A DNA stretch of 64,000 bases from an uncultured Eubacteriales bacterium (GTDB lineage Bacteria; Bacillota; Clostridia; Christensenellales; CAG-138), in NCBI GenBank assembly GCA_902792295.1, contig CADAZC010000004.1:8083-72082 (forward strand), given 5' to 3'. Numbering within the stretch: the first letter of the stretch is position 1; every line of letters starts with the position of its first letter. Below the pieces are notes generated by a model. That model made no database searches and was not told where the DNA came from. It worked only from the letters and a program-made list of their open reading frames with translations. The position numbers and the translations under genes were made by a program. Below, piece by piece: positions 1 through 9,969 of this stretch.

Positions 1-55
1 AATTTGCGGGAACTTCGATCTCCATTCCGTTGATTTTCATATGAACTGTATCCAT
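1..55 (-). CDS. hydA: [FeFe]-hydrogenase catalytic subunit, first 18 codons only (gene runs off the window)
   Basis: The minus-strand ATG at 55-53 lies 5 nt after GGAGGA (rc of 61-66). It translates to MDTVHMKINGMEIEVPAN, typical of the 2Fe-2S N-domain start of HydA. It lies immediately downstream of the NuoF-like gene. Confidence 0.5.
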   Translation of the reverse strand, partial: MDTVHMKINGMEIEVPAN

Positions 56-66
56 GGTCGTCCTCC

Positions 67-1836
67 TTATTTCTTGATGATGGCCGAGAACTTACAGCCT
101 TCCATGCAGGCGCCGCACTTGATGCACTTCGACTGATCGATGACGTGCGGTTCCTTGACCTTGCCCGTGATTGCACCTGCGGGGCACTTGCGCGCGCAGA
201 GCGTGCAGCCGCGGCACTTGTCGGGCTGAATCTCATAATGCATGAGGTTCTTGCAGACGCCCGCCGGGCAGCGCTTTTCGACGACGTGCGCCTCGTACTC
301 GTCGCGGAAATACTTCAGCGTGGACAGAACCGGGTTCGGGGCCGTCTGACCGAGTGCGCACATTGCGTTCGCCTTGATGTAGTTGCAGAGCTCTTCCATC
401 TTGTCGAGATCCTCGAGCGTGCCGTTGCCCGCCGTGATCTTGTCAAGCATTTCGAGAAGACGTCTCGTACCGATACGGCACGGCGTGCACTTGCCGCAGC
501 TCTCGTCGACCGTGAAGTCGAGGAAGAAGCGCGCGACGTCGACCATACAGGTCGTTTCGTCCATGACGATCATACCGCCGGAGCCCATCATCGCGCCGAT
601 CTTGATCAGGTTGTCATAGTCGATCGGCAGATCGAGGTACTGCGCCGGGATGCAGCCGCCGGACGGACCGCCGGTCTGGACCGCTTTGAACTTCTTGCCG
701 TTCGGAATGCCGCCGCCGATGTCGTAGATGATCTCGCGGAGCGTGGTGCCCATCGGGATCTCAACAAGACCGGTGTTGACGATCTTGCCGCCGAGCGCAA
801 AGACCTTGGTGCCCTTGCTGCGTTCGGTACCCATGGATGCGAACCAATCGGCGCCCTTCAGAATGATCTGCGGGATGTTGGCGAGCGTTTCGACGTTGTT
901 GATGATCGTCGGCTGACCGAACAGACCCTTGTTCGCCGGGAACGGGGGCTTGTTTCTCGGCTCGCCGCGGTTGCCCTCGATGGAGGTCAGAAGCGCGGTC
1001 TCTTCGCCGCAAACGAACGCGCCTGCGCCGAGACGGACTTCGATGTCGAAATCGAATCCGGTGCCGAAGATATCCTTGCCGAGCAGGTTGTATTCACGTG
1101 CCTGACCGATTGCGATTTCAAGACGCTTGACCGCGATCGGGTACTCTGCACGGACGTAGATGAAGCCCTTGTTTGCGCCGATCGCATAGCCCGCGATCGC
1201 CATTGCTTCGAGGACCGCATGCGGGTCGCCTTCGAGGACGGAACGGTCCATGAACGCGCCGGGGTCGCCTTCGTCCGCGTTGCACACGACGTACTTCTGC
1301 GGAACCTTATTTCTTGCCGCGAAGTCCCACTTCATGCCGGTCGGGAAGCCCGCGCCGCCTCTGCCGCGAAGGCCGGAATCCTTCATGACCTGGATGACTT
1401 CTTCCGGGGTCATTTCGGTGAGCACCTTGCCGAGAGCGGAATAACCGTCCATCGCGATGTACTCGTCGATCTGTTCCGGGTTGATGACGCCGCAGTTGCG
1501 AAGCGCAACACGCATCTGCGTCTTGTAGAAGCCCGTTTCCTGCAGTCCCTCGGTCTCCCGATACACGAGACGGTCGACGACACGGCCCTTGAGGAGGTGT
1601 TCCGAAACGATCTCGGGAACGTCCTCGAGCTTCACGCGGCTGTAGAACGTGCCTTCAGGATACACGATCATAACCGGACCGAGTGCGCAAAGGCCGAAGC
1701 AGCCAGTGCGTACGACCTTGATTTCATCTGCAAGGCCGTTCAATGCGATCTGTTCTTCCAGCGCTTCCGCGATCTTGACGCTGCCGGAAGAGGTACAACC
1801 CGTACCGCCGCAAATCAAAACATGCGTACGAATCAT
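67..1836 (-). CDS. hydB: NADH-dependent [FeFe]-hydrogenase flavoprotein subunit (NuoF-like, HydB)
   Basis: 589-aa ORF. It has an N-terminal thioredoxin-like 2Fe-2S region (CGGTGC...CFGLC), the FMN/NADH site GRGGAGFPTGMKW, CGKCTPCR, and two C-terminal CxxCxxCxxxCP ferredoxin motifs. Confidence 0.93.
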   Translation of the reverse strand: MIRTHVLICGGTGCTSSGSVKIAEALEEQIALNGLADEIKVVRTGCFGLCALGPVMIVYPEGTFYSRVKLEDVPEIVSEHLLKGRVVDRLVYRETEGLQETGFYKTQMRVALRNCGVINPEQIDEYIAMDGYSALGKVLTEMTPEEVIQVMKDSGLRGRGGAGFPTGMKWDFAARNKVPQKYVVCNADEGDPGAFMDRSVLEGDPHAVLEAMAIAGYAIGANKGFIYVRAEYPIAVKRLEIAIGQAREYNLLGKDIFGTGFDFDIEVRLGAGAFVCGEETALLTSIEGNRGEPRNKPPFPANKGLFGQPTIINNVETLANIPQIILKGADWFASMGTERSKGTKVFALGGKIVNTGLVEIPMGTTLREIIYDIGGGIPNGKKFKAVQTGGPSGGCIPAQYLDLPIDYDNLIKIGAMMGSGGMIVMDETTCMVDVARFFLDFTVDESCGKCTPCRIGTRRLLEMLDKITAGNGTLEDLDKMEELCNYIKANAMCALGQTAPNPVLSTLKYFRDEYEAHVVEKRCPAGVCKNLMHYEIQPDKCRGCTLCARKCPAGAITGKVKEPHVIDQSKCIKCGACMEGCKFSAIIKK

Positions 1837-1851
1837 TCTGTCTTTCCTCCG

Positions 1852-2223
1852 TTATGCTTCCACCGCACCGATGGTGTATTTTGTGACGGGCTTGCCGCCG
1901 ATCAGATGCTCTTTAATGATCTCGGGAACCATTTCGGGCTTGACCTTGACGTAGGTCACGCGTTCCTTATCACCCTCAAACACCTCAACGATCGGCTCAA
2001 AGCGGCACATGCCGATGCAGCCGGTCTGCGTGACGGTCACGCGGTCGCCGAGGTTCTGCTCCGCAACCTGTTCCACAAAGGCGTTCAGAACGGGGCGCGC
2101 GCCTGCCGCGATACCGCAGGTCGCCATGCCGACGACAACACGGATTTCACCGGTGCCTTCCCGAAGAGCGACCTTGTTTTTCATTCTTTCACGAATTTGT
2201 GCAAGTTCTTCCAATGTTTTCAT
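1852..2223 (-). CDS. thioredoxin-like (2Fe-2S) ferredoxin
   Basis: 123-aa ORF carrying MATCGIAAGA ... TGCIGMCRFEP, the 2Fe-2S thioredoxin-like ferredoxin pattern. It is 15 nt upstream of hydB. Confidence 0.8.
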   Translation of the reverse strand: MKTLEELAQIRERMKNKVALREGTGEIRVVVGMATCGIAAGARPVLNAFVEQVAEQNLGDRVTVTQTGCIGMCRFEPIVEVFEGDKERVTYVKVKPEMVPEIIKEHLIGGKPVTKYTIGAVEA

Positions 2224-2262
2224 GTGATTGATCCTTTCATTAGTAGATTTTTCAGAATATCT

Positions 2263-2817
2263 TCAAGCCTCCGAAGCGTATTGCTCCGTCAGCATATCCC
2301 GGATCCAAGCGAGGACTTCGTACTCGTCCAGCGGAACGTCGTCCCCTAAAACCTGTCGGACCTCGCGCGTGTCGAGTTCGACCGTTCGGTCCGGCATCGT
2401 GTGCCGGAAAAGAAAATCCGTTTTCGCGCTTCCGCGAATCAGCAGCGTGATCGTGGAGACCACGTCGCCGAGCGGCGTAAAATCCAGGTGCGTCTTGTCG
2501 AACGTCGCGGAGATCTCCGTTCCGCAGTGTTCGGGATCGACCGCACGCTCCGTGGACCGGATCGTAAGCGCTCCCCCCGTCTGCTCTGCGGCAAGCTTCA
2601 GAAGCGGGATCCCCATGCCCACCTTGCGCGTGGTGCGCGTGGTGGAAAACGGGTCGACCACGGTTTTCAGAAAATCCTCGGACATTCCGTAGCCGTTGTC
2701 TTTGATCGTCAGCTTCAGCGAAGTTTCCGTTTCGTCCAGCAGGATCTCGATCAGCGTCGCTTCCGCACGGATCGAGTTTTGCGCAATATCGAGTATGTTT
2801 AAGCTGAGTTCCTTCAC
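2263..2817 (-). CDS. GHKL-type ATP-binding protein (histidine-kinase-like ATPase, no DHp or sensor domain)
   Basis: The GTG start at 2817 overlaps the upstream TGA (GTGA). N-box-like LDIAQNS, G1 DNGYGM and G2 GMGIPLL motifs are present. I trimmed the Arg-rich upstream extension of the ORF track. Confidence 0.75.
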   Translation of the reverse strand: MKELSLNILDIAQNSIRAEATLIEILLDETETSLKLTIKDNGYGMSEDFLKTVVDPFSTTRTTRKVGMGIPLLKLAAEQTGGALTIRSTERAVDPEHCGTEISATFDKTHLDFTPLGDVVSTITLLIRGSAKTDFLFRHTMPDRTVELDTREVRQVLGDDVPLDEYEVLAWIRDMLTEQYASEA

Positions 2818-3533
2818 AGCTTTCCCTCCCGAAGCTTTGAAAACAGCGCGTGCCGCACTGCGTTCGGATCGGTCTCGTCGGTGTCGAGCGTCATCGTGCC
2901 GCCCGCATCGCCGATTTCCCAAAGGCGATGCGCGTCCGAGCAGACGACGATCGTTCTCCCTTCGGCGAGTCCGGCGTTTTCGCGATCGCGAAGCTCCGCA
3001 ATCGGAAACGCAGGTTCCGGCGGAAATGCGCCGAGCACCGCCAGAAGCCCGTTTGCGTCGCGGTCGATGTGCGCCGGCCAGCAGACCCCGTGAAACGATG
3101 CGACCAGGTCGGCGGCAGACGAAAGATCCAGATCCGTTGCAGCGGGGAGAAAGTACGGATCCTCTCCGATCTTTTCGTCCCGCTCGTTCAGGATCGGCTG
3201 TTCGCCGAAGACCTCAACGCGGTTTTTGATCTTCATCCGGTGCTCCTTCACCGCCGCGCCGAAGGCAAGCGCCTCGTCAAGCGTTTCAAAGATGCACAGC
3301 AGATGAATATCCTCCGCCGTCGTCAGTTCCATGCCCGCGATCGGCACAATGCCGTATTCTTTGCATGCCGCGAAGAATGCCGGACAGTTGTCGACCGAGT
3401 TGTGGTCGGTCAGCGCAACGATGCCGAGTCCGACGAGATGCGCCATCCCCGCGATGTTGCAGGGCGTCATGTCCATGTCTCCGCAGGGAGACAGGCACGA
3501 ATGCAGATGCAGATCGTACGCAGCCGTCCTCAT
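2814..3533 (-). CDS. PHP-domain phosphoesterase
   Basis: 239 aa. It has DLHLHSCLSPCGD, ALTDHN and CSDAH metal-ligand motifs of the PHP fold. It overlaps both neighbouring genes by 4 nt. Confidence 0.8.
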   Translation of the reverse strand: MRTAAYDLHLHSCLSPCGDMDMTPCNIAGMAHLVGLGIVALTDHNSVDNCPAFFAACKEYGIVPIAGMELTTAEDIHLLCIFETLDEALAFGAAVKEHRMKIKNRVEVFGEQPILNERDEKIGEDPYFLPAATDLDLSSAADLVASFHGVCWPAHIDRDANGLLAVLGAFPPEPAFPIAELRDRENAGLAEGRTIVVCSDAHRLWEIGDAGGTMTLDTDETDPNAVRHALFSKLREGKL

Positions 3534-3859
3534 TTGAGCAGTGCGCCGACTTCGGTGCAGATCTCAAATGTGGACCGTTCGGAGAGCAGCAGGTTCAATC
3601 CGTGCAGCTTCGCCGCGTTGATTGCAGCTTCATCCGGACGAACGCCCTCGGAGAACACGATGCAGGCGCAGTCCGTCAGCTGCCCGACCGCCGCCACGTT
3701 CACGTTCGACATGATCGTGACCCAGCAGTCGCCGCTTTCGGCGCGTCCCATGACCCAGCTCAGAAGATCGCCCGCATAGCCGCCGGTGATCTCACGATCG
3801 CCGTCGGACAGGAGCAAAGGTTCGTATCCGGTTTTTTCGATCAGTTCGCTTACCGTCAT
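3530..3859 (-). CDS. DRTGG domain protein
   Basis: I trimmed the start to the ATG at 3859 (MTVSELIEKTGYEP...). The sequence LLSDGDREITGGYAGDLLS is DRTGG-like. The upstream gene ends at 3867. Confidence 0.7.
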   Translation of the reverse strand: MTVSELIEKTGYEPLLLSDGDREITGGYAGDLLSWVMGRAESGDCWVTIMSNVNVAAVGQLTDCACIVFSEGVRPDEAAINAAKLHGLNLLLSERSTFEICTEVGALLK

Positions 3860-3866
3860 GGCTTTC

Positions 3867-5150
3867 TCACTTTCCGTCGTCGCCTTCCAGTTCACGCAGA
3901 AGCTCACGCATGCGGATGACGCAGTCGTCAAGCTTGGATTCGCCCCGCACGACGTCCTCCGCGTGCGCACGGCAGGTCGGCGCTCCGCAGGAGCCGCAGT
4001 CCATGCCGGGCAGCATTTTCGTGATGCGTTCGATCTCCGCCATCATACGGAAGGATTGCATCCGGTCCGCGCCGAGAATTTCCGCCGTACTGTACTCGCC
4101 GGGCTCCACAGTCATCACGTCGCTCGGGATCGGTTCGTCCTCTCCGAGAATGACGTGGTTCTGCGAAACCGGCATATACCGCTGCAGCGCACGGATGCGC
4201 ACACGCGCGATATACGGATTCTCGACCGCCATGACGCCGCCGACGCAGCCGCCGGGGCAGGCGTTCATCTCGACGAATTTCAGGTCCGGGAAATGCCCCA
4301 TCTCGATATCGTCGAGCACGCGGATGATGTTCTCGATGCCGTCCGCCGCGAGGTAGTGGTCGTTCATCAGCGCGCTTGCTTCGCCGCCGGAGGACGACCA
4401 GCTCATGCCGATCATGCCGGTTTCCGACGTGATCTCCGGAACCTTCGAACGGTCCATTTTCGAAAGAACGCGGAAGTAGATGTCGCTCATGGAGACGACG
4501 TAGTCCACATAGCATTCCTTCTCTGCGGGCGTGTTCTTGACCCAGCTGACCTTGGCGGGGCACGGAGAGATGAACACCGTCTTGACGTCATCGGGCTTCA
4601 GCTCGGGATGCTCTTTGAGCGCACGTTCCTTTGCAAGCTTCCCCGCGACCTCAATCGGCGGTGAAATCGGAACCATCTTGCTGCGCAGAGACGGGAACCG
4701 GAGCGAGATGAGACGAACGACGACCGGACACGCCGTGCTGATAAACGGCGCATGCGACATGCCCATGCGCTGCATATACGTACGGGTATAGTCCGTGACC
4801 AGCTCCGCCGCCTTGGCAACCTCGAACACATCGTTGAATCCGAGATTCTTCAGTCCCTGCAGCAGATAGTCCGAATCGTCGAGATTCGCGAACTGACCGA
4901 GCAGCGAAGGCGCGGGAAGCGCGATCAGGTACTTGCTCCGGTCGAGAGAATCCCATTCGTCGAAATTCGCCCGCTTTGCCTTGTACGGGCAATGGCGGAT
5001 GCACTCGCCGCAGTCGATGCAGAGACTCGAATTGATACAAGCTTTTCCGTCGCGGATGCGGATCGCCTGCGTGGGGCAGCGGCGCAAGCAGGTAGTACAC
5101 CCCTTGCACCTGGACGCATCTAACGAGACAGAATGCTTGTAAACGATCAT
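3867..5150 (-). CDS. [FeFe]-hydrogenase-like protein, putative sensory type (H-domain plus 2x[4Fe-4S] plus a C-terminal Cys motif)
   Basis: 427 aa. CKGCTTCLRRCP and CIDCGECIRHCP are present. The H-cluster signatures are STACP (canonical TSCCP, with the first Cys replaced by Ala), SPCPAK and EMNACPGGCVGG. A C-terminal CGSCGAPTC...C motif follows. Confidence 0.85.
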   Translation of the reverse strand: MIVYKHSVSLDASRCKGCTTCLRRCPTQAIRIRDGKACINSSLCIDCGECIRHCPYKAKRANFDEWDSLDRSKYLIALPAPSLLGQFANLDDSDYLLQGLKNLGFNDVFEVAKAAELVTDYTRTYMQRMGMSHAPFISTACPVVVRLISLRFPSLRSKMVPISPPIEVAGKLAKERALKEHPELKPDDVKTVFISPCPAKVSWVKNTPAEKECYVDYVVSMSDIYFRVLSKMDRSKVPEITSETGMIGMSWSSSGGEASALMNDHYLAADGIENIIRVLDDIEMGHFPDLKFVEMNACPGGCVGGVMAVENPYIARVRIRALQRYMPVSQNHVILGEDEPIPSDVMTVEPGEYSTAEILGADRMQSFRMMAEIERITKMLPGMDCGSCGAPTCRAHAEDVVRGESKLDDCVIRMRELLRELEGDDGK

Positions 5151-5159
5151 GTTTCCTCC

Positions 5160-5594
5160 TTAAGCGGATCTGAATTTCATCTCGATCGTTGTGCCGACGC
5201 CGACGACGGAATCGATCTTGAGCTCATCCGAGTATCGCTTCATGTTCGGCAGACCCATGCCGGCGCCGAAGCCGAGCGAACGGATGTTGTCCGGAGCGGT
5301 GGAAAACCCTTCCTGCATCGCCTGCTCGACATCCTTGATGCCGGGGCCGACGTCCTTCAGGATCACCGTGATGCAGTCCGGCGTGACGTAAACGTCTGCG
5401 TCGCCGCCCTTTGCATGGATGACCATGTTGATTTCGCCCTCGTACATCGCAACGGAAATCCTGCGAATCAGATCGGGATGATATCCCATCTGCCGCAGCA
5501 TCCGCTTGACCTGTACGGATGCCTCGCCTGCGGACGTGAAGTTGTTTCCGTCCACATCGTAATGGAAATGGAGCGCGTTGCTGTCTTCCGTCAT
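5160..5594 (-). CDS. anti-sigma regulatory factor-like Ser/Thr kinase (HATPase_c_2 type)
   Basis: 144 aa with GEINMVIHAKGG, DVGPGI and GFGAGMGLPNM motifs. It has a 4-nt ATGA overlap with the upstream DRTGG gene. Confidence 0.75.
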   Translation of the reverse strand: MTEDSNALHFHYDVDGNNFTSAGEASVQVKRMLRQMGYHPDLIRRISVAMYEGEINMVIHAKGGDADVYVTPDCITVILKDVGPGIKDVEQAMQEGFSTAPDNIRSLGFGAGMGLPNMKRYSDELKIDSVVGVGTTIEMKFRSA

Positions 5595-5929
5595 CTTCCG
5601 AGCCCGCCTTCATACAATTTCCCGCTGGCCTCATACATCGTCAGCTTTGTTTCCAAAAGAGCGATCCGGTTTTCGGCGGCGAGACGCTTGATCTCCTCCG
5701 TCGCCGTCTTTCCGCGAACAATGATGATGCAGCGCATATCCAGCATGTGCGCGGTGCGGACGATCTGCGGGTTCAAAAGTCCCGTCAGCAGAACGTCGCG
5801 GTTTTCCGCAAATGCAAGAACGTCGCTCATCATGTCGCTGCCGAATGCGCCGGTCAGGTCTTCGTCGATCTGATCGGGTTCGGCATATACAACGGCGTCG
5901 ATTCGTTCGGCGATCTCCCGGATAGTCAT
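5591..5929 (-). CDS. DRTGG domain protein
   Basis: 112 aa. The sequence DVLLTGLLNPQIVRTAHMLDMRCIIIVRG fits the DRTGG family pattern. Confidence 0.7.
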   Translation of the reverse strand: MTIREIAERIDAVVYAEPDQIDEDLTGAFGSDMMSDVLAFAENRDVLLTGLLNPQIVRTAHMLDMRCIIIVRGKTATEEIKRLAAENRIALLETKLTMYEASGKLYEGGLGR

Positions 5930-5945
5930 ACTCGTTTCCTTTCGA

Positions 5946-6443
5946 TTATGCGCGGAATTTGTCCAAAATGCCCTTGACGTCGGCGGGAACCATTCTGCCG
6001 AAAACTTCGTCGTCGATCGTCATAACCGGAGCGAGACCGCAGCAGCCGAGGCAGCGCGTTGCTTCGAGCGTAAACTTGCCGTCGTTCGTGGTATGACCCG
6101 CCTTGATGCCGAGCTGACGCTCAAGCTCCGCAAGAATGTCCGCGGAACCCTTGACATAGCAGGCGGTACCGAGGCAGACGCGGATCAGATGCTCGCCCTT
6201 CGGCTCCAGCGTGAACCAGGAATAGAACGTGGAAACGCCGTAAACCTGCTCCAGCGAAACGCCGAGTCCTTCGGCGACCATCGTCTGCACCTCGATCGGC
6301 AGATAGCCGTAGATCTCCTGTGCCTTCTGCAGCACAGGCATCATTGCATCGCTGTGACCCTTGTACTGTGCAATAACTTCTTTCAGTTTGGCTTCCTGTT
6401 CGGGCGTACCCCTGAACGGGATTTCGGTGATTTTGTTCGTCAT
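5946..6443 (-). CDS. hydC: NADH-dependent [FeFe]-hydrogenase 2Fe-2S subunit (NuoE-like, HydC)
   Basis: 165 aa. The Cys ligands VCLGTACYVKG and RCLGCCGLAPV are typical of NuoE. A GGAGGATG RBS precedes the gene, which is first in the operon. Confidence 0.9.
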   Translation of the reverse strand: MTNKITEIPFRGTPEQEAKLKEVIAQYKGHSDAMMPVLQKAQEIYGYLPIEVQTMVAEGLGVSLEQVYGVSTFYSWFTLEPKGEHLIRVCLGTACYVKGSADILAELERQLGIKAGHTTNDGKFTLEATRCLGCCGLAPVMTIDDEVFGRMVPADVKGILDKFRA

Positions 6444-6690
6444 ACATCCTCCTTAAAAGATGAGATTATTGACCATCGAATATTATAGCATACACTTCCC
6501 GCAATTTCCATAGATTTTTTCAACATCTTTTTCTATATTTTTCTCTTGTTTTGACGATTAAAGAGCTTTCTTCACGAAAAATCCGCAAAAACTTTGCAAA
6601 AAATTAAGTTTGCATACTTTCCTTTTTCATTTAAATCGTGTATGATAAGGGTACACATTAGGAGTACTATATTATGGAAGGGGAATACAT

Positions 6691-7566
6691 ATGGCAAAGA
6701 AACTGAAATTCAAACCCACTCCTGCCGGTATACTGTTTCTGTCGGCGATCGGCGTTCTGTTGATCGCGATCATCATTCTGACGATCGTCGGCGTCTCTCG
6801 CTGCAAGAAGAATGACACCCGCATCAATCCCGTCACCAGCGCAGAGCCGGTCGAGAGTCTTGAACCGGTCGAATCCGTCGAACCGAGCGAAACGCCCGCC
6901 GCGGTCACTCCCGATACGAGCACGGAACCCGAGAATACGACCGATCCGGACGCATCACCCATCACCGGTGAAGCGACGCCCGCTTCCGGTGAAACGAGCG
7001 GTCCCGGCGCCATCGTGATCACCACCCCCGGCTCCGGATCGTCCACCGCAGGCACGAGCGCTTCTCCGGCGGCAACGACCAAGTATTACACTTCGCCGAC
7101 CACCACGATGAAGAACCACTCGCAGAAGGGCTATATCAATGCGGATAAGGTCAATATGCGCAAAGAGCCGAACAAGAACGCGAAGCTCGTAAAGGAGAAG
7201 ATTCCGAAGAACACCGCCGTTACGCTCTATGTTGAGCAGGAGGGCTGGTGGTTCCTGAAGTGCGGCGACAAGTACGGCTACATCAAGAAGGACTACATCA
7301 GCAAGGGCTCCGCTCCGACCGCAGCCGCTTCCAGCAGCAACGCTACCGGCAAGGTCGTCGCATCCAAGATCGCACTCAGAAAGAGCGCAGATGAAAACTC
7401 CGAGTGCATCAAGGAATACTCCAACGGCGAGCAGCTTACCATCTACTGGTCCGAGAAGGGCAAGGACGGCAAGAAATGGTATTATGTCAAGACCAGCGAC
7501 GGAAAGAAGGGCTATATGTTCGCCGAATACGTCAAGGTCACCAACGGCAAGGTCACCGCAAAATAG
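6691..7566 (+). CDS. membrane-anchored protein with two bacterial SH3 domains
   Basis: 291 aa. It has an N-terminal TM helix, a Pro/Thr/Glu/Ser-rich linker, then two SH3b-like units (GYINADKVNMRKEPN..., KVVASKIALRKSADE...). The RBS is GGAAGGGG. Confidence 0.8.
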   Translation: MAKKLKFKPTPAGILFLSAIGVLLIAIIILTIVGVSRCKKNDTRINPVTSAEPVESLEPVESVEPSETPAAVTPDTSTEPENTTDPDASPITGEATPASGETSGPGAIVITTPGSGSSTAGTSASPAATTKYYTSPTTTMKNHSQKGYINADKVNMRKEPNKNAKLVKEKIPKNTAVTLYVEQEGWWFLKCGDKYGYIKKDYISKGSAPTAAASSSNATGKVVASKIALRKSADENSECIKEYSNGEQLTIYWSEKGKDGKKWYYVKTSDGKKGYMFAEYVKVTNGKVTAK

Positions 7567-7578
7567 TCTCATGACTGC

Positions 7579-7609
7579 AAAGACCCGCGAATATCGCGGG
7601 TCTTTTTTT
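7579..7609. terminator. bidirectional intrinsic terminator between convergent genes
   Basis: An 8-bp GC stem pairs GACCCGCG (7582-7589) with CGCGGGTC (7595-7602). A T7 run follows and an A-run precedes. Confidence 0.85.
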
Positions 7610-7617
7610 ATACGCAA

Positions 7618-8442
7618 TCAGAATCCTCGGTTTTTGAGATCGTGGACAATCTCGACGTAGAAGTCCGTGATGTCGCGCACGTCCTTCCCCGTCTTTTGGG
7701 AAAACGCGGAACGGCGGAAGTCAATCTCATCCAGATGCGAAATGCCGCGGCGCGTATTGCCGCGAATCTCAATGCAGCGCTCGCCCCATCTTGCCGATTC
7801 CGCGGAGACGAGTCCGTCGTTCGGTCCCTCGATGCGGTTCAGCACGAAGCACGCCGTGGAAAGGTTGATATCCGAAAACGGACGGCGCATAACGCCTGCC
7901 ACGCTCTGATAAAACACGCCGGGCGCATCCGGGTTCTCGGCGTTGAACCGTTCCATATGCGAAACGGCAAACTCCTCGCATACGCGGCGGAAGTCCGGCT
8001 CGCGGTCGCCGATCAGCCGGATCCAGTTGTTGACCGCGAACGCGGCGATCGAAAAGAACACACGCGGCGCACGGAGAAAGATGCTGAATGTCTTGGATCC
8101 GCGGTGCGGCGTACCGATCGTGGTGATGCTTGCGATCCGGTCGGCACAGTTCAGCGAGGACGCCGCCATGCGCGCCTCGAGACCGCCCTTTGAATGCGCG
8201 ATGATGTTCACCTTCTTCGCGCCGGTCTCCTTCAGTACCGCGTCGATGCGTTCGCAGAGCGCGTGCGCATTCGTCTCCGTGCTCGCCCAGCAGTCCTGTT
8301 CGCCGAAAAAGACCGTCGCGCCGTGCGAGCGCAGAACGTTCGGAATCCGCCCCCAGTAGACCGGCGTTTTGAGATCGCGGAAGCCCGCGCCGTGCACAAG
8401 CAGGATCGGATATTCGGTTTTGCAGACGACGGATTCGATCAC
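7618..8442 (-). CDS. alpha/beta-hydrolase lipase/esterase
   Basis: 274 aa. It has the oxyanion region ILLVHG and the nucleophile elbow AHSKGG (GxSxG class, as in Bacillus LipA-type lipases). Confidence 0.8.
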   Translation of the reverse strand: MIESVVCKTEYPILLVHGAGFRDLKTPVYWGRIPNVLRSHGATVFFGEQDCWASTETNAHALCERIDAVLKETGAKKVNIIAHSKGGLEARMAASSLNCADRIASITTIGTPHRGSKTFSIFLRAPRVFFSIAAFAVNNWIRLIGDREPDFRRVCEEFAVSHMERFNAENPDAPGVFYQSVAGVMRRPFSDINLSTACFVLNRIEGPNDGLVSAESARWGERCIEIRGNTRRGISHLDEIDFRRSAFSQKTGKDVRDITDFYVEIVHDLKNRGF

Positions 8443-8888
8443 AGTTGCGAAAGGATCGCGCGCGCGGCGTCGGGATTCTTTTTCGGCTCCTTCACGTGCA
8501 GGATCGCCGCGTCCGGGAGGCGTTTTTTGATCTGCTCCTCCGCCTTCTTTGCTTCGCCGCTGCCGGAATACAGCACGAACGTAACCTTCCTGCCGGCGAA
8601 ATCGACGTCGCGAAGAACGGTATTGACCGGACAGGACAGGCGCCCGTTCCAGACCGGCGAGCCGACCACGACCTCGTCAAAGGCGGAAACGTCCGTATCG
8701 TACGGCTTCAGCGGTTCGCAATACCTGCGTCCCGCGTTGAATCCGCCCTGCAGGATTTGAAAGAAAAACGATTTCGGCGGTTTTTTCGCCGTTTCGACCT
8801 TGCGGATTGCAAAGCCATTGTCCTTCAGGCATTCCGCGGCGAAGTCGCCGTTGCCGGACAGCGTATAATAAATGAACAGCTTGCTCAT
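8439..8888 (-). CDS. flavodoxin-family protein
   Basis: 149 aa. The N-terminus IYYTLSGNG and the sequence VVVGSPVWNGR are flavodoxin-like. It overlaps the lipase gene by 4 nt. Confidence 0.65.
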   Translation of the reverse strand: MSKLFIYYTLSGNGDFAAECLKDNGFAIRKVETAKKPPKSFFFQILQGGFNAGRRYCEPLKPYDTDVSAFDEVVVGSPVWNGRLSCPVNTVLRDVDFAGRKVTFVLYSGSGEAKKAEEQIKKRLPDAAILHVKEPKKNPDAARAILSQL

Positions 8889-8898
8889 GGGGCCCTCC

Positions 8899-9969
8899 TT
8901 ATTTCAAAACGAAATGCATCTCGACCGGATTGTGATCGGAATACGCAAATCCGGTATCGACGACGTTTGCATAGACAACCTCGACGTTGTCGGTGACCAT
9001 AAAGCCGTCGATGGTCAGCGTGTACTGTCCCGCATGATACGGACCGTCGGCGTTGCGGGAGCTCGGAACCGGCTTTTTTTCATCGATCGGCGCGATCAGC
9101 GTGATGTTCCGTCCCTCGAACATGCTGTCCGGGATCGGCTGCGCCCAAGTATACTCAATGTCGGATTTGCCGAAGTATTTTGAGGAATCGCCGAGCAGGT
9201 CCTTGTTGAAATCGCCGCCCGCGACGCAGTAATTGCCCTTTTCGTATTCGGACTGCATATCGTTCAGCAGAATCTCCAGCTGCTCATAGGCGATCGTACC
9301 GTCGGACGTGTACGCCGAAAGGTGCATGTTGTAAACGATCAGCTCCGCGCCGGACGGCAGCGGGATCCGGTTTTTGCAGTAGCAGCGGTCAAGGTCCAAA
9401 AACTTGGTGAATCCCTCCTCGATCGGCAGCTCCACGCGCTCCGCGGATGCGATCGGCGCCGCGGAAAAAGTCATAAGTCCCGACCGTGCTTTGCCGAACG
9501 GCTGCGTGACCGGATAGGCAAGGAACGGCGAGTCGTAGTTCTGTGCAAACGTATACGACATCTCGGGAAGCGCATTGACCATATACGGGCGCTCCTCAAA
9601 GTAGTAGCTTCGCGTTGAACCGATGTCGATCTCCTGAATCAGGAGGATATCCGCATCCTGCGCCTGCAGGACCGTGCCGATCTCCTTCAGGTTCTTATCG
9701 AGACGTTCCTTCGACCATGCCCATGCGCGGTCGCCGCCGTCCATAAAGAAGCCGAAATCGGATTCATACGCGCCGAAACCGATATTATAGGAAATGATCT
9801 TGTACTCCGTTCCGGTCTCGATCGTGCCGTTTGCAGTCCCTTCCGGCGCGATCGGCTGACTGCCGATGCGATGGTAACGGATGAGCACATAAGCGACATA
9901 GGCGGCAAACAGAAGCACAAGGACCAGCAGGATGATCCCGATGATTTTCAGAGCTTTTTTCATACGCAT
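8899..9969 (-). CDS. membrane-anchored endonuclease/exonuclease/phosphatase (EEP) family hydrolase
   Basis: 356 aa. It has an N-terminal TM helix and the EEP motifs SYNIG, LLIQEID, GGDFN and SDHNP. Confidence 0.8.
   Translation of the reverse strand: MRMKKALKIIGIILLVLVLLFAAYVAYVLIRYHRIGSQPIAPEGTANGTIETGTEYKIISYNIGFGAYESDFGFFMDGGDRAWAWSKERLDKNLKEIGTVLQAQDADILLIQEIDIGSTRSYYFEERPYMVNALPEMSYTFAQNYDSPFLAYPVTQPFGKARSGLMTFSAAPIASAERVELPIEEGFTKFLDLDRCYCKNRIPLPSGAELIVYNMHLSAYTSDGTIAYEQLEILLNDMQSEYEKGNYCVAGGDFNKDLLGDSSKYFGKSDIEYTWAQPIPDSMFEGRNITLIAPIDEKKPVPSSRNADGPYHAGQYTLTIDGFMVTDNVEVVYANVVDTGFAYSDHNPVEMHFVLK

What the first reader, a model, noticed from the sequence alone, without database searches (positions are those of the whole stretch)
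2263..5929. An uncharacterised sensory-hydrogenase / kinase-like / DRTGG / PHP cassette is embedded between hydC and hydB
Ten co-directional genes (6443 down to 1) are separated by 4-nt overlaps or gaps of at most 40 nt. The order is hydC, DRTGG, anti-sigma-kinase-like ATPase, a hydrogenase-like protein, DRTGG, PHP phosphoesterase, GHKL ATPase, 2Fe-2S ferredoxin, hydB, hydA.

The 427-aa hydrogenase-like protein keeps all H-cluster ligating motifs (STACP, SPCPAK, EMNACPGGCVGG), two N-terminal 4Fe-4S motifs and a C-terminal CGSCGxxxC...C motif. The first Cys of canonical TSCCP, which is the proton-relay Cys of catalytic enzymes, is Ala. There is no PAS domain.

From memory, this matches the putative sensory 'group D / M2e' type studied in Thermoanaerobacter mathranii HydS.

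No DNA-binding output protein is encoded in the operon. This suggests a partner-switching or phosphorylation circuit acting post-translationally on HydABC, or on a factor encoded elsewhere. The neighbourhood is widely annotated in anaerobes, but as far as I know its signalling logic is not established.
Basis: partly seen in the sequence, partly recalled or inferred. Interest (0 to 1): 0.55.

Follow-up and report, generated by a model that had tools for sequence, protein, structure and literature searches.

The report
Hydrogen-sensor signalling genes inside a hydrogenase operon
This is a real, widely conserved gene cluster in which a hydrogenase-like putative hydrogen sensor (the known "group D" HydS type) and five small signalling proteins sit inside the operon for an energy-conserving hydrogenase. 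The kind is already known, but how it signals is not, and gene fusions in other organisms point to one small kinase-like protein as the sensor's direct partner.

Summary
Ten co-directional genes run from position 6443 to the window edge: hydC, DRTGG1, K1 (SpoIIAB-like ATPase), HydS, DRTGG2, PHP, K2 (GHKL ATPase), 2Fe-2S ferredoxin, hydB, hydA. They have one promoter-like site, 4-nt overlaps or gaps of at most 39 nt, and no convincing internal terminator.

HydS is a group D (M2e) putative sensory [FeFe]-hydrogenase:
- 45% identity to TamHydS.
- All four H-cluster Cys in register, with the relay Cys replaced by Ala.
- No PAS domain and a C-terminal Cx2Cx4Cx16C motif.
- All four group-D-specific proton-path residues.

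The ten-gene set recurs in every one of 80 rumen/gut Clostridia loci long enough to show it. It also recurs in Thermoanaerobacter, Caldicellulosiruptor, Coprothermobacter and others. There the five-gene sensor module lies upstream of hydC, so only the position of hydC is special in this window.

New here: among 150 representatives of K1 homologues, 29 are K1::HydS fusions, 11 are DRTGG1::K1, one is K1::DRTGG2 and about 30 are CBS-pair::K1. The minimal module is DRTGG1-K1-HydS. PHP resembles nucleotide or nucleic-acid phosphoesterases, not protein phosphatases.

Verdict: a new member of a known kind. The signalling mechanism is still inferred, but it is now sharply testable.

The parts
6482..6510 (-). 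Promoter-like site upstream of hydC (TGGAAA-17 nt-TATAAT with a TG extension)
   Evidence: It is the only minus-strand promoter-like site in 1-6660 and scores 10 of 12. This is a consensus match only.
5946..6443 (-). hydC, the NuoE-like [2Fe-2S] subunit of the bifurcating hydrogenase. It is the first gene of the operon in this lineage.
   Evidence: Pfam 2Fe-2S_thioredx at 1.4e-53. NCBIfam NuoE/HoxE family. Its position differs from the classical order.
5591..5929 (-). DRTGG1, a 112-aa single-domain DRTGG protein. Its stop overlaps the K1 start by 4 nt.
   Evidence: Pfam DRTGG at 27.2 bits, above the cut-off. Conserved SD[LM]MSDVL and LLTGLxNxQVxRTA motifs across lineages. Found fused N-terminally to K1 in 11 representative clusters.
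5160..5594 (-). K1, a 144-aa SpoIIAB/RsbW-like GHKL ATPase and putative Ser/Thr kinase
   Evidence: Pfam HATPase_c_2 at 2.3e-10. Full-length match to anti-sigma F factor 1TH8 at E 7e-9. The N-box (YEgEiNmviH), G1 (DvGPGI) and G2 (GFGAGMGLPN) motifs are invariant. It is the best-conserved accessory gene, about 68% identical where HydS is about 55%. Fusions to HydS, DRTGG or CBS occur elsewhere.
3867..5150 (-). HydS, a 427-aa group D (M2e) putative H2-sensing [FeFe]-hydrogenase
   Evidence: Carries two N-terminal [4Fe-4S] motifs. H-cluster Cys are C141, C197, C298 and C302. A140 replaces the proton-relay Cys and S195 replaces CpI M353. S254, E257, D270 and E294 correspond to TamHydS S249, E252, D265 and E289. 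The C-terminal motif is Cx2Cx4Cx16C (PF04060). No PAS domain.
3530..3859 (-). DRTGG2, a 109-aa paralogue of DRTGG1. Its stop overlaps the PHP start by 4 nt.
   Evidence: hhalign against the DRTGG1 family gives 99.4%, E 1.4e-21, over the full length. Pfam gives weak DRTGG and Hpr_kinase_N hits. It lies downstream of HydS in all full clusters.
2814..3533 (-). PHP-family metal-dependent phosphoesterase, 239 aa
   Evidence: Pfam PHP at 9.7e-10. Invariant metal-ligand motifs are DLHxH, TDHN, GxExxTxExxH, AHxxR and SDxH, plus an invariant LSPC. The AF2 model has pLDDT 89. Nearest folds are EndoQ, RNase AM, TrpH-like proteins and the Pol III PHP domain.
2263..2817 (-). K2, a 184-aa stand-alone GHKL ATPase. 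It has a histidine-kinase-type catalytic domain without a DHp/His domain, followed by an unassigned C-terminal domain of about 80 aa.
   Evidence: Pfam HATPase_c at 5.9e-12 and HATPase_c_3 at 2.6e-10. Best PDB matches are histidine-kinase CA domains. A profile of the C-terminal domain finds nothing in the PDB. K2 is present in every HydABC-linked cluster examined.
1852..2223 (-). Small thioredoxin-like [2Fe-2S] ferredoxin. From my own knowledge it corresponds to 'HydD' of the Thermoanaerobacter enzyme.
   Evidence: Pfam 2Fe-2S_thioredx at 7.5e-6. NCBIfam 2Fe-2S ferredoxin. Conserved between K2 or hydC and hydB in all clusters.
67..1836 (-). hydB, the NuoF-like flavin/NADH subunit, with an N-terminal [2Fe-2S] domain and two C-terminal [4Fe-4S] motifs
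   Evidence: Pfam Complex1_51K at 1e-48, NADH_4Fe-4S at 4.6e-36, and Fer4.
1..55 (-). Start of hydA, the catalytic group A [FeFe]-hydrogenase. It is cut by the window edge.
   Evidence: The 18 N-terminal residues match the 580-aa HydA of loci L002, L006 and L019. Those orthologues carry Fer2_4, NADH-G_4Fe-4S_3, Fe_hyd_lg_C and Fe_hyd_SSU in the distant loci.

Best explanation
**What it is (shown).** This is an electron-bifurcating HydABC [FeFe]-hydrogenase operon. It also carries the conserved accessory set of group D (M2e) putative H2-sensing hydrogenases. In this lineage hydC has moved to the head of the operon, so the sensor module is co-transcribed inside the structural genes.

**How it most likely works (inferred).**
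1. HydS binds H2 at an H-cluster whose proton relay is disabled. It reports H2 or redox state by a conformational change rather than by turnover.
2. Its direct partner is K1, a SpoIIAB-like serine-kinase/ATPase. K1 forms a complex with HydS and with the paralogous small proteins DRTGG1 and DRTGG2. DRTGG1-K1-HydS is the minimal sensor-kinase unit.
3. The DRTGG proteins occupy the position that an adenine-nucleotide-binding CBS pair takes in related fusions. They may act as regulatory or partner-switching subunits, and possibly as phospho-acceptors. The Ser in the D-x-[LM]-S motif is invariant in both paralogues, but it is only a candidate.
4. PHP and K2 accompany the module only when HydABC is present. 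They form the effector or reset arm that couples the signal to HydABC activity or expression. PHP hydrolyses a phospho-ester; whether this is on a protein or a nucleotide is not resolved.
5. The net function is to adjust the bifurcating hydrogenase to ambient H2, and probably to energy charge.
For: **Identity of HydS**
- 45% identity to TamHydS over the full length (E 4e-125).
- H-cluster ligands in register.
- Group-D-specific residues: A140 at the relay-Cys position, S195 at CpI M353, and S254/E257/D270/E294 matching the TamHydS proton path (PMC10407848).
- No PAS domain.

**Operon**
- One promoter-like site and no convincing terminator.
- Overlapping start and stop codons.

**Synteny**
- Identical ten-gene order in 80 species-level genomes.
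- The same ten genes in Thermoanaerobacter, Caldicellulosiruptor bescii, Coprothermobacter, Caldicoprobacter, Thermoanaerobacterium and a metagenome contig. These differ only in the position of hydC.

**K1 as the direct partner**
- 29 of the 150 best 50%-identity representatives of K1 homologues are K1::HydS fusions. Eleven are DRTGG1::K1 and one is K1::DRTGG2.
- Two fusions were verified on their contigs inside otherwise identical clusters: L088/L089 and L090.

**Minimal core**
- L084 has only DRTGG1-K1-HydS, without HydABC, PHP or K2.
- L091 has DRTGG1-CBS::K1-HydS-DRTGG2, also without PHP or K2.

**Catalytic competence**
- The N, G1 and G2 boxes of K1 and the PHP metal ligands are invariant across lineages.
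- K1 is more conserved than HydS itself.

**CBS analogy**
- All 14 tested representatives with N-terminal extensions that lacked a DRTGG match have a CBS pair fused to K1.

**Literature**
- TamHydS has high H2 affinity and low turnover, and H2 changes its secondary structure (PMC8163306, PMC13104023).
Against: - No biochemical data exist for any accessory protein.
- No phospho-acceptor is identified. The conserved Ser in the DRTGG proteins may simply belong to the general DRTGG fold motif.
- K1 scores far below the SpoIIAB equivalog cut-off (60.8 against 135 bits). No STAS protein, PP2C phosphatase or sigma factor is in the operon, so the classical partner-switching parts list is not met.
- The nearest structural relatives of PHP act on nucleotides or nucleic acids. 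CpsB/YwqE-type protein phosphatases are absent from the significant hits.
- K2 lacks a DHp/His domain. Its C-terminal domain is unassigned.
- Rex (L090) and an NtrC-type activator (L088/L089) sit next to the module in some lineages. This hints at transcriptional output rather than direct control of the enzyme.
- Fusion counts come from unannotated metagenome-derived representatives, and only three fusion types were checked on contigs.
Confidence: 0.55

Rival explanations
1. Transcriptional control. K1 acts like an anti-sigma factor. Depending on the state of HydS, it sequesters or phosphorylates a transcription factor encoded elsewhere, such as a sigma factor, Rex or an enhancer-binding protein. 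It thereby sets hyd operon transcription. The DRTGG proteins act as the antagonists that release the factor.
For: - K1's best named relatives are anti-sigma F and RsbW.
- In L090 a Rex gene overlaps the DRTGG1::K1 start by 4 nt. An exact Rex operator lies upstream of it.
- In L088/L089 an NtrC-type sigma-54 activator lies immediately upstream of DRTGG1.
- In the classical arrangement a 100-300 nt gap separates the sensor module from hydC-K2-fdx-hydB-hydA. This is consistent with a separately regulated promoter.
- Earlier genome papers proposed H2-dependent transcriptional control (PMC3492117, PMC3561251).
Against: - No sigma factor, Rex gene or other DNA-binding gene lies in or next to the cluster in the window, nor in the 80 related loci within 10 kb.
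- No Rex operator lies upstream of hydC in the window.
- The regulator neighbours differ between lineages, so none is a conserved part of the system.
- PHP and K2 track HydABC rather than any regulator.
Confidence: 0.25
2. Nucleotide or energy-charge circuit rather than protein phosphorylation. The DRTGG proteins, like CBS pairs, bind adenine nucleotides or a nucleotide messenger. The two GHKL ATPases act as nucleotide-dependent switches. PHP degrades a nucleotide signal such as pAp, a short oligonucleotide or a dinucleotide. HydS adds the H2 or redox input.
For: - The closest folds to PHP are EndoQ, RNase AM, TrpH-like BAD_1165, TM0559, the Pol III PHP domain and the pAp phosphatase Cv1693 (weak sequence matches; NCBIfam nucleoside-bisphosphate phosphatase hit).
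- About 30 of the 150 K1-clade representatives carry an N-terminal CBS pair, and 14 of 14 tested do. From established knowledge of the family, CBS pairs bind adenosine ligands.
- DRTGG occupies the same position as the CBS pair in other fusions, and one protein (P0422) has both.
Against: - K1 keeps every motif of an active SpoIIAB-type kinase.
- No nucleotide cyclase or synthetase is in the cluster.
- TM-scores for the PHP matches are only 0.5-0.64, and substrate cannot be read from the fold.
- Ligand binding by DRTGG domains is not established.
Confidence: 0.15
3. Not a sensor. HydS is a slow auxiliary catalytic hydrogenase or an extra electron-transfer subunit of the HydABC complex. On this reading the small proteins are assembly or maturation factors.
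For: - TamHydS does catalyse H+/H2 interconversion at low rates (PMC8163306).
- HydS carries three accessory [4Fe-4S] clusters.
- The genes are co-transcribed with the structural genes in this window.
Against: - Fusion of a SpoIIAB-type signalling kinase to HydS in 29 independent clusters.
- The DRTGG1-K1-HydS trio occurs without any HydABC, next to chemotaxis and GGDEF genes (L084).
- The proton-relay Cys is lost.
- From my own knowledge of Soboh et al. 2004, not checked here, the purified Thermoanaerobacter enzyme contains HydA-D only.
Confidence: 0.05

Closest known systems
Group D (M2e) putative sensory [FeFe]-hydrogenase, type example TamHydS of Thermoanaerobacter mathranii (Land et al. 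2020, PMC8163306; PMC10407848; PMC13104023)
   Same: - Same domain architecture: 2x[4Fe-4S], H-domain, and a Cx2Cx4Cx16C cluster domain, with no PAS.
- 45% identity over the full length.
- Relay Cys replaced by Ala.
- CpI M353 replaced by Ser.
- E252, E289, S249 and D265 equivalents are conserved.
- Encoded with a trimeric bifurcating group A hydrogenase.
- Flanked by the same DRTGG, K1, PHP and K2 genes in Thermoanaerobacter (L081).
   Different: - Mesophilic rumen/gut Clostridia lineage (MAGs labelled Clostridia or Christensenellales).
- hydC is relocated to the head of the operon, so the sensor module lies inside one ten-gene transcription unit instead of upstream of hydC.
- CpI M497 is Asn here and Leu in TamHydS. 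That position is variable in the group.
Sensory-hydrogenase / bifurcating-hydrogenase gene pairs described in Clostridia genome surveys. Source read here: Carere et al. 2012, PMC3561251, Table 6 (Athe_1292, TTE0887, Cthe_0335, Cphy_3798). Calusinska et al. 2010 is cited from memory and was not read.
   Same: A 'D M2e' monomeric sensory hydrogenase lies a few genes upstream of an 'A1 TR(M3)' trimeric hydrogenase. The two are separated by kinase-like genes. I confirmed the C. bescii locus directly (L082).
   Different: Those papers speak only of 'histidine/serine kinases' and 'phosphatases'. In the papers I could search, the two DRTGG paralogues, the SpoIIAB-like nature of K1, the PHP type and the fusions are not described (one search found no relevant paper combining DRTGG and hydrogenase).
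Group C (M2f) sensory hydrogenases with a PAS domain: TmHydS, R. albus HydS, and HfsB of the T. saccharolyticum hfsABCD cluster
   Same: - H-cluster protein lacking the relay Cys.
- C-terminal extra [4Fe-4S] cluster.
- Encoded with a bifurcating hydrogenase and with Ser/Thr-kinase and phosphatase genes. The group C parts list is from the literature and my own knowledge.
   Different: - Group C has a fused PAS domain and, from my own knowledge, a PP2C (SpoIIE-type) phosphatase.
- Here there is no PAS domain and no PP2C. DRTGG proteins and a PHP esterase are present instead.
SpoIIAB/SpoIIAA/SpoIIE and RsbW/RsbV/RsbU partner-switching modules
   Same: K1 is a full-length homologue of SpoIIAB with intact ATP-binding motifs. 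It is encoded with small single-domain proteins and a phosphoesterase. Translational coupling suggests complexes.
   Different: - No STAS antagonist, no PP2C phosphatase and no sigma factor.
- K1 scores below the equivalog thresholds.
- The partner proteins are DRTGG domains.
- The input is a hydrogenase-like protein that is fused to the kinase in some lineages.
Regulatory [NiFe]-hydrogenase HoxBC-HoxJ-HoxA of Cupriavidus necator (H2 sensing through a histidine kinase)
   Same: Same logic: a catalytically slow hydrogenase homologue bound to a kinase reports H2 and controls a metabolic hydrogenase.
   Different: Unrelated metal site and protein families. HoxJ is a PAS histidine kinase with a response regulator, and its output is known. 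Here the kinase is SpoIIAB-like and the output is unknown.

Membership tests
Group D (M2e) [FeFe]-hydrogenase (HydS) | H-domain with the four H-cluster cysteine ligands in register (L1, L2 and L3 motifs) | tested here: met
   C141, C197, C298 and C302 align with the ligands of the D. desulfuricans enzyme and of TamHydS. Pfam Fe_hyd_lg_C at 6.3e-33.
Group D (M2e) [FeFe]-hydrogenase (HydS) | Proton-relay Cys (CpI C299) absent. CpI M353 replaced by Ser or Thr. | tested here: met
   STACP, with A140 at the C299 position. ISPCPAK, with S195 at the M353 position. Both match TamHydS (SSACP, ISPCAAK; PMC8163306).
Group D (M2e) [FeFe]-hydrogenase (HydS) | Group-D-exclusive alternative proton-path residues (TamHydS S249, E252, D265, E289) | tested here: met
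   S254, E257, D270 and E294 in the ungapped BLASTP block. E257, D270 and E294 are invariant, and S254 is at least 98% conserved, in the alignments. The residues are defined in PMC10407848.
Group D (M2e) [FeFe]-hydrogenase (HydS) | Two N-terminal [4Fe-4S] motifs, a C-terminal Cx2Cx4Cx16C motif, and no PAS domain | tested here: met
   Sequence. Pfam gives Fer4 families and PF04060 at residues 380-411, with no PAS hit.
Group D (M2e) [FeFe]-hydrogenase (HydS) | Phylogenetic placement within group D rather than groups A, B or C | tested here: inconclusive
   No tree was built. Identity is 45% to TamHydS, against 22-25% to the HydA of the related loci. The PDB group A enzymes match at E 1e-13 to 1e-20. 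No group C sequence was at hand for comparison.
Group D (M2e) [FeFe]-hydrogenase (HydS) | High H2 affinity, low turnover, H2-dependent conformational change | not testable with these tools
   These are biochemical properties, reported only for TamHydS (PMC8163306, PMC13104023).
Electron-bifurcating HydABC (trimeric group A, with the small HydD ferredoxin) | NuoE-like HydC, NuoF-like HydB with FMN/NADH and Fe-S domains, and a multi-domain HydA, all encoded together | tested here: met
   Pfam and NCBIfam for HydC and HydB. Only the first 18 residues of HydA lie in the window, but they match 580-aa HydA orthologues. The domain set of those orthologues is shown. Bifurcating activity itself was not tested.
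SpoIIAB/RsbW anti-sigma serine kinases (for K1) | Full-length HATPase_c_2 domain with N, G1 and G2 ATP-binding boxes | tested here: met
   Pfam at 2.3e-10. Residues 8-140 align to residues 5-135 of 1TH8, with E/N, DxGxG and GxG conserved. The motifs are invariant in 15 diverse orthologues.
SpoIIAB/RsbW anti-sigma serine kinases (for K1) | Orthology to SpoIIAB or RsbW (curated equivalog score) | tested here: not met
   TIGR01925 scores 60.8 bits against a cut-off of 135. The RsbW model scores 20.2 against 145.
Partner-switching module (kinase + STAS antagonist + PP2C phosphatase + sigma factor) | STAS-domain antagonist, PP2C phosphatase and target sigma factor encoded with the kinase | tested here: not met
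   None of the ten operon products or the four upstream neighbours has STAS, PP2C or sigma domains. DRTGG and PHP proteins stand in their places. The module works like one at most by analogy.
DRTGG domain proteins (PF07085) | Match to the family model above the gathering score | tested here: met
   DRTGG1 scores 27.2 bits against 25.2. DRTGG2 alone scores 17.8, below the cut-off. DRTGG2 is a full-length paralogue of DRTGG1 by profile-profile comparison (99.4%). Orthologues of both score as DRTGG in other loci.
PHP metal-dependent phosphoesterases | PHP fold with the conserved His/Asp/Glu metal ligands | tested here: met
   Pfam at 39.5 bits against 26.4. H9, H11, D43/H44, E69, H77, H155 and D200/H202 are invariant in 30 sequences. 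The AF2 model has pLDDT 89 and matches PHP structures at probability 1.0.
PHP-type protein phosphatases (CpsB/YwqE) | Closest structural or sequence relatives are protein tyrosine phosphatases of the PHP family | tested here: not met
   None is among the 31 Foldseek hits with E <= 0.001 or the further hits listed up to rank 37, nor among the phmmer hits. The top hits are EndoQ, TrpH-like proteins, RNase AM, TM0559 and the Pol III PHP domain.
Two-component histidine kinases (for K2) | DHp/HisKA dimerisation domain with a phospho-acceptor His, plus a CA domain | tested here: not met
   Only the CA (HATPase_c) domain is present, at residues 8-108. There is no HisKA hit. The C-terminal 80 aa match nothing.

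The most novel reading that the evidence does not exclude
DRTGG1-K1-HydS-DRTGG2, with PHP and K2 as the effector arm, may be a previously undescribed kind of partner-switching or serine-kinase signalling system. In it, DRTGG-domain proteins replace STAS antagonists and a PHP esterase replaces the PP2C phosphatase. A hydrogenase-like protein supplies an H2 input, and CBS/DRTGG modules supply an energy-charge input. The output would act post-translationally on the bifurcating hydrogenase HydABC. This would be the first defined signalling pathway for an [FeFe]-type H2 sensor.
Probability: 0.3. Interest if true: 0.7.

Novelty: new member of a known kind. Interest (0 to 1): 0.45.

Why it matters
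H2 partial pressure decides whether fermenters in the rumen and gut can dispose of electrons through bifurcating hydrogenases. That choice sets acetate, ethanol and methane yields.

Group C and D HydS proteins have been called H2 sensors for over a decade, yet no interaction partner or output has been shown. A 2026 study of TamHydS names identification of the partners as the critical next step.

This window adds no new kind of system. The comparative work it prompted gives concrete, testable answers:
- K1 is fused to HydS in many lineages, so it is the prime candidate for the direct partner.
- DRTGG1-K1-HydS is the minimal module.
- PHP and K2 belong to the HydABC-linked arm.
- PHP is probably not a classical protein phosphatase.

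The cluster is also abundant in rumen Clostridia, with 80 species-level genomes found here. It is therefore relevant to work on methane mitigation.

Tried and rejected
- **Rfam scan** of 1-7000 at E <= 1 found no RNA family, so there is no riboswitch or leader explanation.
- **Rex operator.** A search for TTGTKAANNNNTTMACAA with up to 3 mismatches found no site upstream of hydC, and the count equals chance. Among 91 loci only L090 has an exact site. Rex control is therefore not general.
- **Tsac_1856.** The predicted Rex site of T. saccharolyticum 'PHP domain protein' Tsac_1856 (PMC5886521) is not in the Thermoanaerobacterium hyd locus L086. I dropped the idea that it is this PHP gene.
- **DRTGG1 against the PDB** by sequence gave only chance-level hits.
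- **K2 structure.** A single-sequence AF2 model reached pLDDT 52 and is unusable, so it was not fold-searched. A concatenated PHP+K2 query, meant to collect homologues of both, returned only PHP proteins plus one PHP::K2 fusion. No K2 alignment could be built for structure prediction.
- **K2 C-terminal domain.** A profile search against the PDB gave no hit.
- **Literature.** A search for DRTGG together with hydrogenase found two irrelevant papers. The review of multimeric hydrogenases does not discuss the regulatory genes.
- **Phospho-site idea.** I considered reading the conserved D-x-[LM]-S of the DRTGG proteins as a phosphorylation site by analogy with SpoIIAA Ser58. I kept it only as a candidate, because it may be part of the general DRTGG fold motif.
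- **Artefact fusions.** I considered that the fusions are gene-calling artefacts at 4-nt overlaps. I rejected this for K1::HydS and DRTGG1::K1. There are 29 and 11 clusters respectively, each more than 50% divergent from the others. Two were verified as open reading frames on independent contigs. The single PHP::K2 fusion (P0273) may well be an artefact.

Full report
**1. Observation**

The minus strand from 6443 down to the window edge carries ten genes:

| Gene | Coordinates | Note |
|---|---|---|
| hydC | 5946-6443 | |
| DRTGG1 | 5591-5929 | |
| K1 | 5160-5594 | |
| HydS | 3867-5150 | 427 aa |
| DRTGG2 | 3530-3859 | |
| PHP | 2814-3533 | |
| K2 | 2263-2817 | |
| 2Fe-2S ferredoxin | 1852-2223 | |
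| hydB | 67-1836 | |
| hydA | from 55 | cut by the window edge |

- Two starts differ from the mechanical ORF list. DRTGG2 begins at the ATG at 3859. K2 begins at a GTG at 2817 that overlaps the PHP stop as GTGA.
- Spacers are 16, -4, 9, 7, -4, -4, 39, 15 and 11 nt.
- One sigma-70-like site (TGGAAA-17-TATAAT with a TG extension) lies upstream of hydC at 6510-6482. No further minus-strand promoter-like site and no convincing minus-strand terminator lie inside the ten genes.
- No Rfam family matches.
DRTGG2 alone is below the Pfam cut-off. It is a full-length paralogue of DRTGG1 by profile-profile comparison (99.4%, E 1.4e-21).
- The 18 hydA residues in the window match the N-terminus of 580-aa HydA proteins in related loci.

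**2. HydS is a group D (M2e) putative sensory hydrogenase**

Against solved [FeFe]-hydrogenases the three H-cluster motifs are in register. The Ala of STACP sits at the position of the proton-relay Cys.

I rebuilt the TamHydS protein from the codon-optimised gene printed in the supplement of PMC13104023. The rebuilt sequence places C379, S249, E252, D265 and E289 exactly where the papers number them.

- The window protein is 45% identical to TamHydS over 420 residues (E 4e-125).
- It shares the two N-terminal [4Fe-4S] motifs and the Cx2Cx4Cx16C motif, and it has no PAS domain.
- Ser stands at the CpI M353 position.
- All four residues of the group-D-specific proton path described in PMC10407848 are present (S254, E257, D270, E294).
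- I did not build a tree, so formal placement is by signature and identity only.

**3. Synteny**

- A scan of one genome per species returned 80 loci with HydS at 94-53% identity. All come from rumen or gut Clostridia MAGs, including Christensenellales, Oscillospiraceae, Acutalibacteraceae and 'Flemingiibacterium'.
- A tblastn with the nine window proteins shows the same order in every locus as far as the contig reaches: HydC, DRTGG1, K1, HydS, DRTGG2, PHP, K2, Fdx, HydB, HydA.
- Where HydS is about 55% identical, K1 is about 68%. HydB is about 76%, Fdx about 63% and HydC about 58%. PHP and K2 are about 50%, DRTGG1 about 47% and DRTGG2 about 40%. All accessory genes are thus under purifying selection, and K1 is the most constrained.
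- A search with TamHydS gave distant group D proteins, and I looked up their contigs. Thermoanaerobacter (L081), Caldicellulosiruptor bescii (L082, the Athe_1292 locus), Coprothermobacter platensis (L083), Caldicoprobacter (L085), Thermoanaerobacterium (L086) and a metagenome contig (L087) all show the same order. That order is DRTGG1, K1, HydS, DRTGG2, PHP, a gap of about 100-300 nt, then HydC, K2, Fdx, HydB, HydA.

The same ten genes are therefore conserved across at least two phyla. In the window's lineage the only change is that hydC stands first, which places the five-gene sensor module inside one transcription unit. K2 and the ferredoxin lie between hydC and hydB in the classical order as well, so the six genes of the finding are not a single inserted cassette.

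**4. What the cluster's variants say**

- A Peptococcaceae MAG (L084) has only DRTGG1-K1-HydS. It lacks DRTGG2, PHP, K2 and HydABC, and the trio sits among CheW, MCP, STAS and PAS-GGDEF genes.
- Locus L091 has DRTGG1, CBS::K1, HydS and DRTGG2 next to rnfCDGEAB, again without PHP or K2.
- PHP and K2 were seen only where the HydC-Fdx-HydB-HydA set is adjacent.

This splits the set into a sensor core and a HydABC-linked arm.

**5. Fusions**

A library-wide phmmer search with K1 found 1920 homologues. Of these, 82 have E below 1e-30. I scored the best 150 representatives (50%-identity clusters) with HMMs of the window families, and ran Pfam on a sample of them.

| Architecture | Count among 150 | Detail |
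|---|---|---|
| K1::HydS | 29 | K1 at residues ~5-137, then 2x[4Fe-4S], the H-domain and PF04060; 435-586 aa |
| DRTGG1::K1 | 11 | |
| K1::DRTGG2 | 1 | |
| CBS-pair::K1 | about 30 | 14 of 14 tested |

Contig checks:
- The K1::HydS protein P0483 lies on two independent contigs. Its context is NtrC-type regulator, DRTGG1, K1::HydS, DRTGG2, PHP, K2, HydC, Fdx, HydB.
- The DRTGG1::K1 protein P0368 lies on ten contigs. Its context is Rex, DRTGG1::K1, HydS, DRTGG2, PHP, HydC, K2, Fdx, HydB, HydA, RnfC.
- A CBS::K1 protein elsewhere sits next to recG without HydS. The K1 clade is therefore a broader signalling family that takes HydS as one of several inputs.

The fused HydS proteins keep all four H-cluster Cys, both N-terminal clusters and the C-terminal cluster. 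The Lys of the L2 motif (CpI K358) is Gln in these proteins.

In my reading these Rosetta-stone fusions are the strongest available evidence that K1 binds HydS and the DRTGG proteins.

**6. The individual accessory proteins**

- *K1* aligns end to end with anti-sigma F factor SpoIIAB (1TH8) and keeps the Glu/Asn, DxGxG and Gly-rich boxes. It is far below the SpoIIAB and RsbW equivalog thresholds, so it is a relative, not an orthologue.
- *K2* has a histidine-kinase-type catalytic domain but no DHp/His domain. Its last 80 residues or so match nothing in Pfam or the PDB. A single-sequence model was too poor to use.
- *PHP* keeps all metal ligands plus an invariant LSPC motif. Its model has pLDDT 89. 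It resembles EndoQ, TrpH-like BAD_1165, RNase AM, TM0559, the Pol III PHP domains and the pAp phosphatase Cv1693. It does not resemble the CpsB/YwqE protein phosphatases.
- *DRTGG1 and DRTGG2* share an invariant D-x-[LM]-S motif. I regard that Ser only as a candidate phospho-acceptor.

**7. Mechanism**

Shown:
- The identity of HydS.
- The operon structure.
- Deep conservation of the parts list.
- Physical linkage of K1 with HydS and the DRTGG proteins through fusions.
- Intact catalytic motifs in K1, K2 and PHP.

Inferred:
- HydS reports H2 to K1.
- The DRTGG proteins act as regulatory or switching partners. They stand where CBS pairs stand in related kinases, which suggests an adenine-nucleotide or energy-charge input.
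- PHP and K2 couple the signal to HydABC.

Rivals:
- Transcriptional output through a factor encoded elsewhere. Rex and NtrC neighbours in two lineages hint at this. None is present in the window or in the 80 related loci.
- A nucleotide-based rather than phosphoprotein-based circuit, suggested by the PHP fold and the CBS fusions.
- A non-sensory, catalytic or assembly role, which the kinase fusions and the HydABC-free trio make unlikely.

**8. What is known**

- Group D/M2e and its position next to bifurcating hydrogenases are in the literature. I read PMC3561251 Table 6 and PMC8163306; Calusinska 2010 I cite from memory.
- Land et al. noted a 'histidine kinase-like ATPase' beside TamHydS.
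- Rydzak et al. [quoted passage not shown]
- PMC11216029 (2024) still calls group D functionally undefined.
- PMC13104023 (2026) states that the interaction partners must be identified. It also shows that the C-terminal cluster is not reduced by H2.
- In the papers I could search I found no description of the DRTGG paralogues, of the SpoIIAB-like nature of K1, of the type of PHP domain, or of the fusions. That library lacks most subscription papers, so this absence is weak evidence.

**9. Verdict**

- The finding is real and correctly identified.
- As a genomic object it is a new member of a known kind, with a lineage-specific relocation of hydC.
- Its interest lies in the recognised open question of how [FeFe]-type H2 sensors signal. 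The comparative data gathered here supply specific candidates and experiments for that question.

Noticed in passing
window 5946-6443, compared with L081-L083, L085-L087 and L088/L089: There are three gene orders for the same parts. In the window lineage hydC comes first. In the classical order hydC lies between PHP and K2. In L088/L089 K2 precedes hydC (PHP-K2-HydC-Fdx-HydB). PHP-K2 adjacency with a 4-nt overlap is shared by the window and L088/L089.
   Followed up: yes
P0385, P0399, P0417, P0483, P0490 and 24 more; L088 3241-4842: This is a clade of K1::HydS fusion proteins (435-586 aa). They keep all H-cluster Cys and all accessory clusters, but the L2 motif Lys (CpI K358, which contacts a CN ligand) is Gln (CPxQ). 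The H-cluster environment may be unusual, or the site may not be matured.
   Followed up: partly
L090 7269-8004: A Rex gene (Put_DNA-bind_N + CoA_binding) overlaps the start of DRTGG1::K1 by 4 nt. An exact Rex operator (TTGTKAANNNNTTMACAA) precedes it at 7269-7286. This is the only such site in 91 loci. RnfC follows hydA in this locus.
   Followed up: partly
L088 1065-2471 and L089 579-1985: An NtrC-type response regulator (receiver + sigma-54 activator + HTH_8) lies directly upstream of DRTGG1 in the fused-sensor lineage. In L088 it is preceded by a 138-aa HATPase_c protein.
   Followed up: no
L084 7496-10329: The DRTGG1-K1-HydS trio occurs without DRTGG2, PHP, K2 or HydABC. It is flanked by CheW, an MCP, a STAS protein and a PAS-GGDEF protein. 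An H2 sensor may be wired to other outputs here.
   Followed up: no
L091 7646-16169: DRTGG1, CBS-pair::K1, a longer HydS (506 aa) and DRTGG2 sit directly upstream of rnfCDGEAB. They lie downstream of a different hydrogenase whose HydB is fused to a GltD-like domain (1039 aa).
   Followed up: no
window 2263-2505 (K2 residues ~105-184): The C-terminal domain of K2, about 80 aa, is conserved (invariant Asp and Pro, a DTREIR-like stretch). It has no Pfam match and no PDB match by profile. It is an unassigned domain.
   Followed up: partly
window 3480-3510 (PHP residues 9-17): PHP has H-x-H-S-C-L-S-P-C where TrpH-type PHP enzymes usually have H-x-H-T-x-x-S-D-G (the TrpH motif is from my own knowledge, not checked here). 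The LSPC Cys is invariant in all 14 diverse and 30 close sequences. It is a possible extra metal or redox ligand.
   Followed up: no
P0273: This is a single 404-aa PHP::K2 fusion on one 2.3-kb contig. Because the two genes overlap by 4 nt, it may be a frameshift artefact.
   Followed up: no
window 145-2349 (+) and other long antisense ORFs in 1-6500: The mechanical ORF list shows long ORFs (up to 734 aa) on the strand opposite hydB, the ferredoxin gene and the 3' end of K2. They have a low-complexity Arg/Ala-rich composition. They look like shadow ORFs of high-GC coding sequence, not genes.
   Followed up: no
window 6691-9969: The upstream neighbours appear unrelated to the operon. They are a divergently transcribed SH3_3 protein with a Pro/Ser/Thr-rich linker, an alpha/beta hydrolase (lipase-like), a flavodoxin-like protein, and an endonuclease/exonuclease/phosphatase-family protein.
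   Followed up: partly
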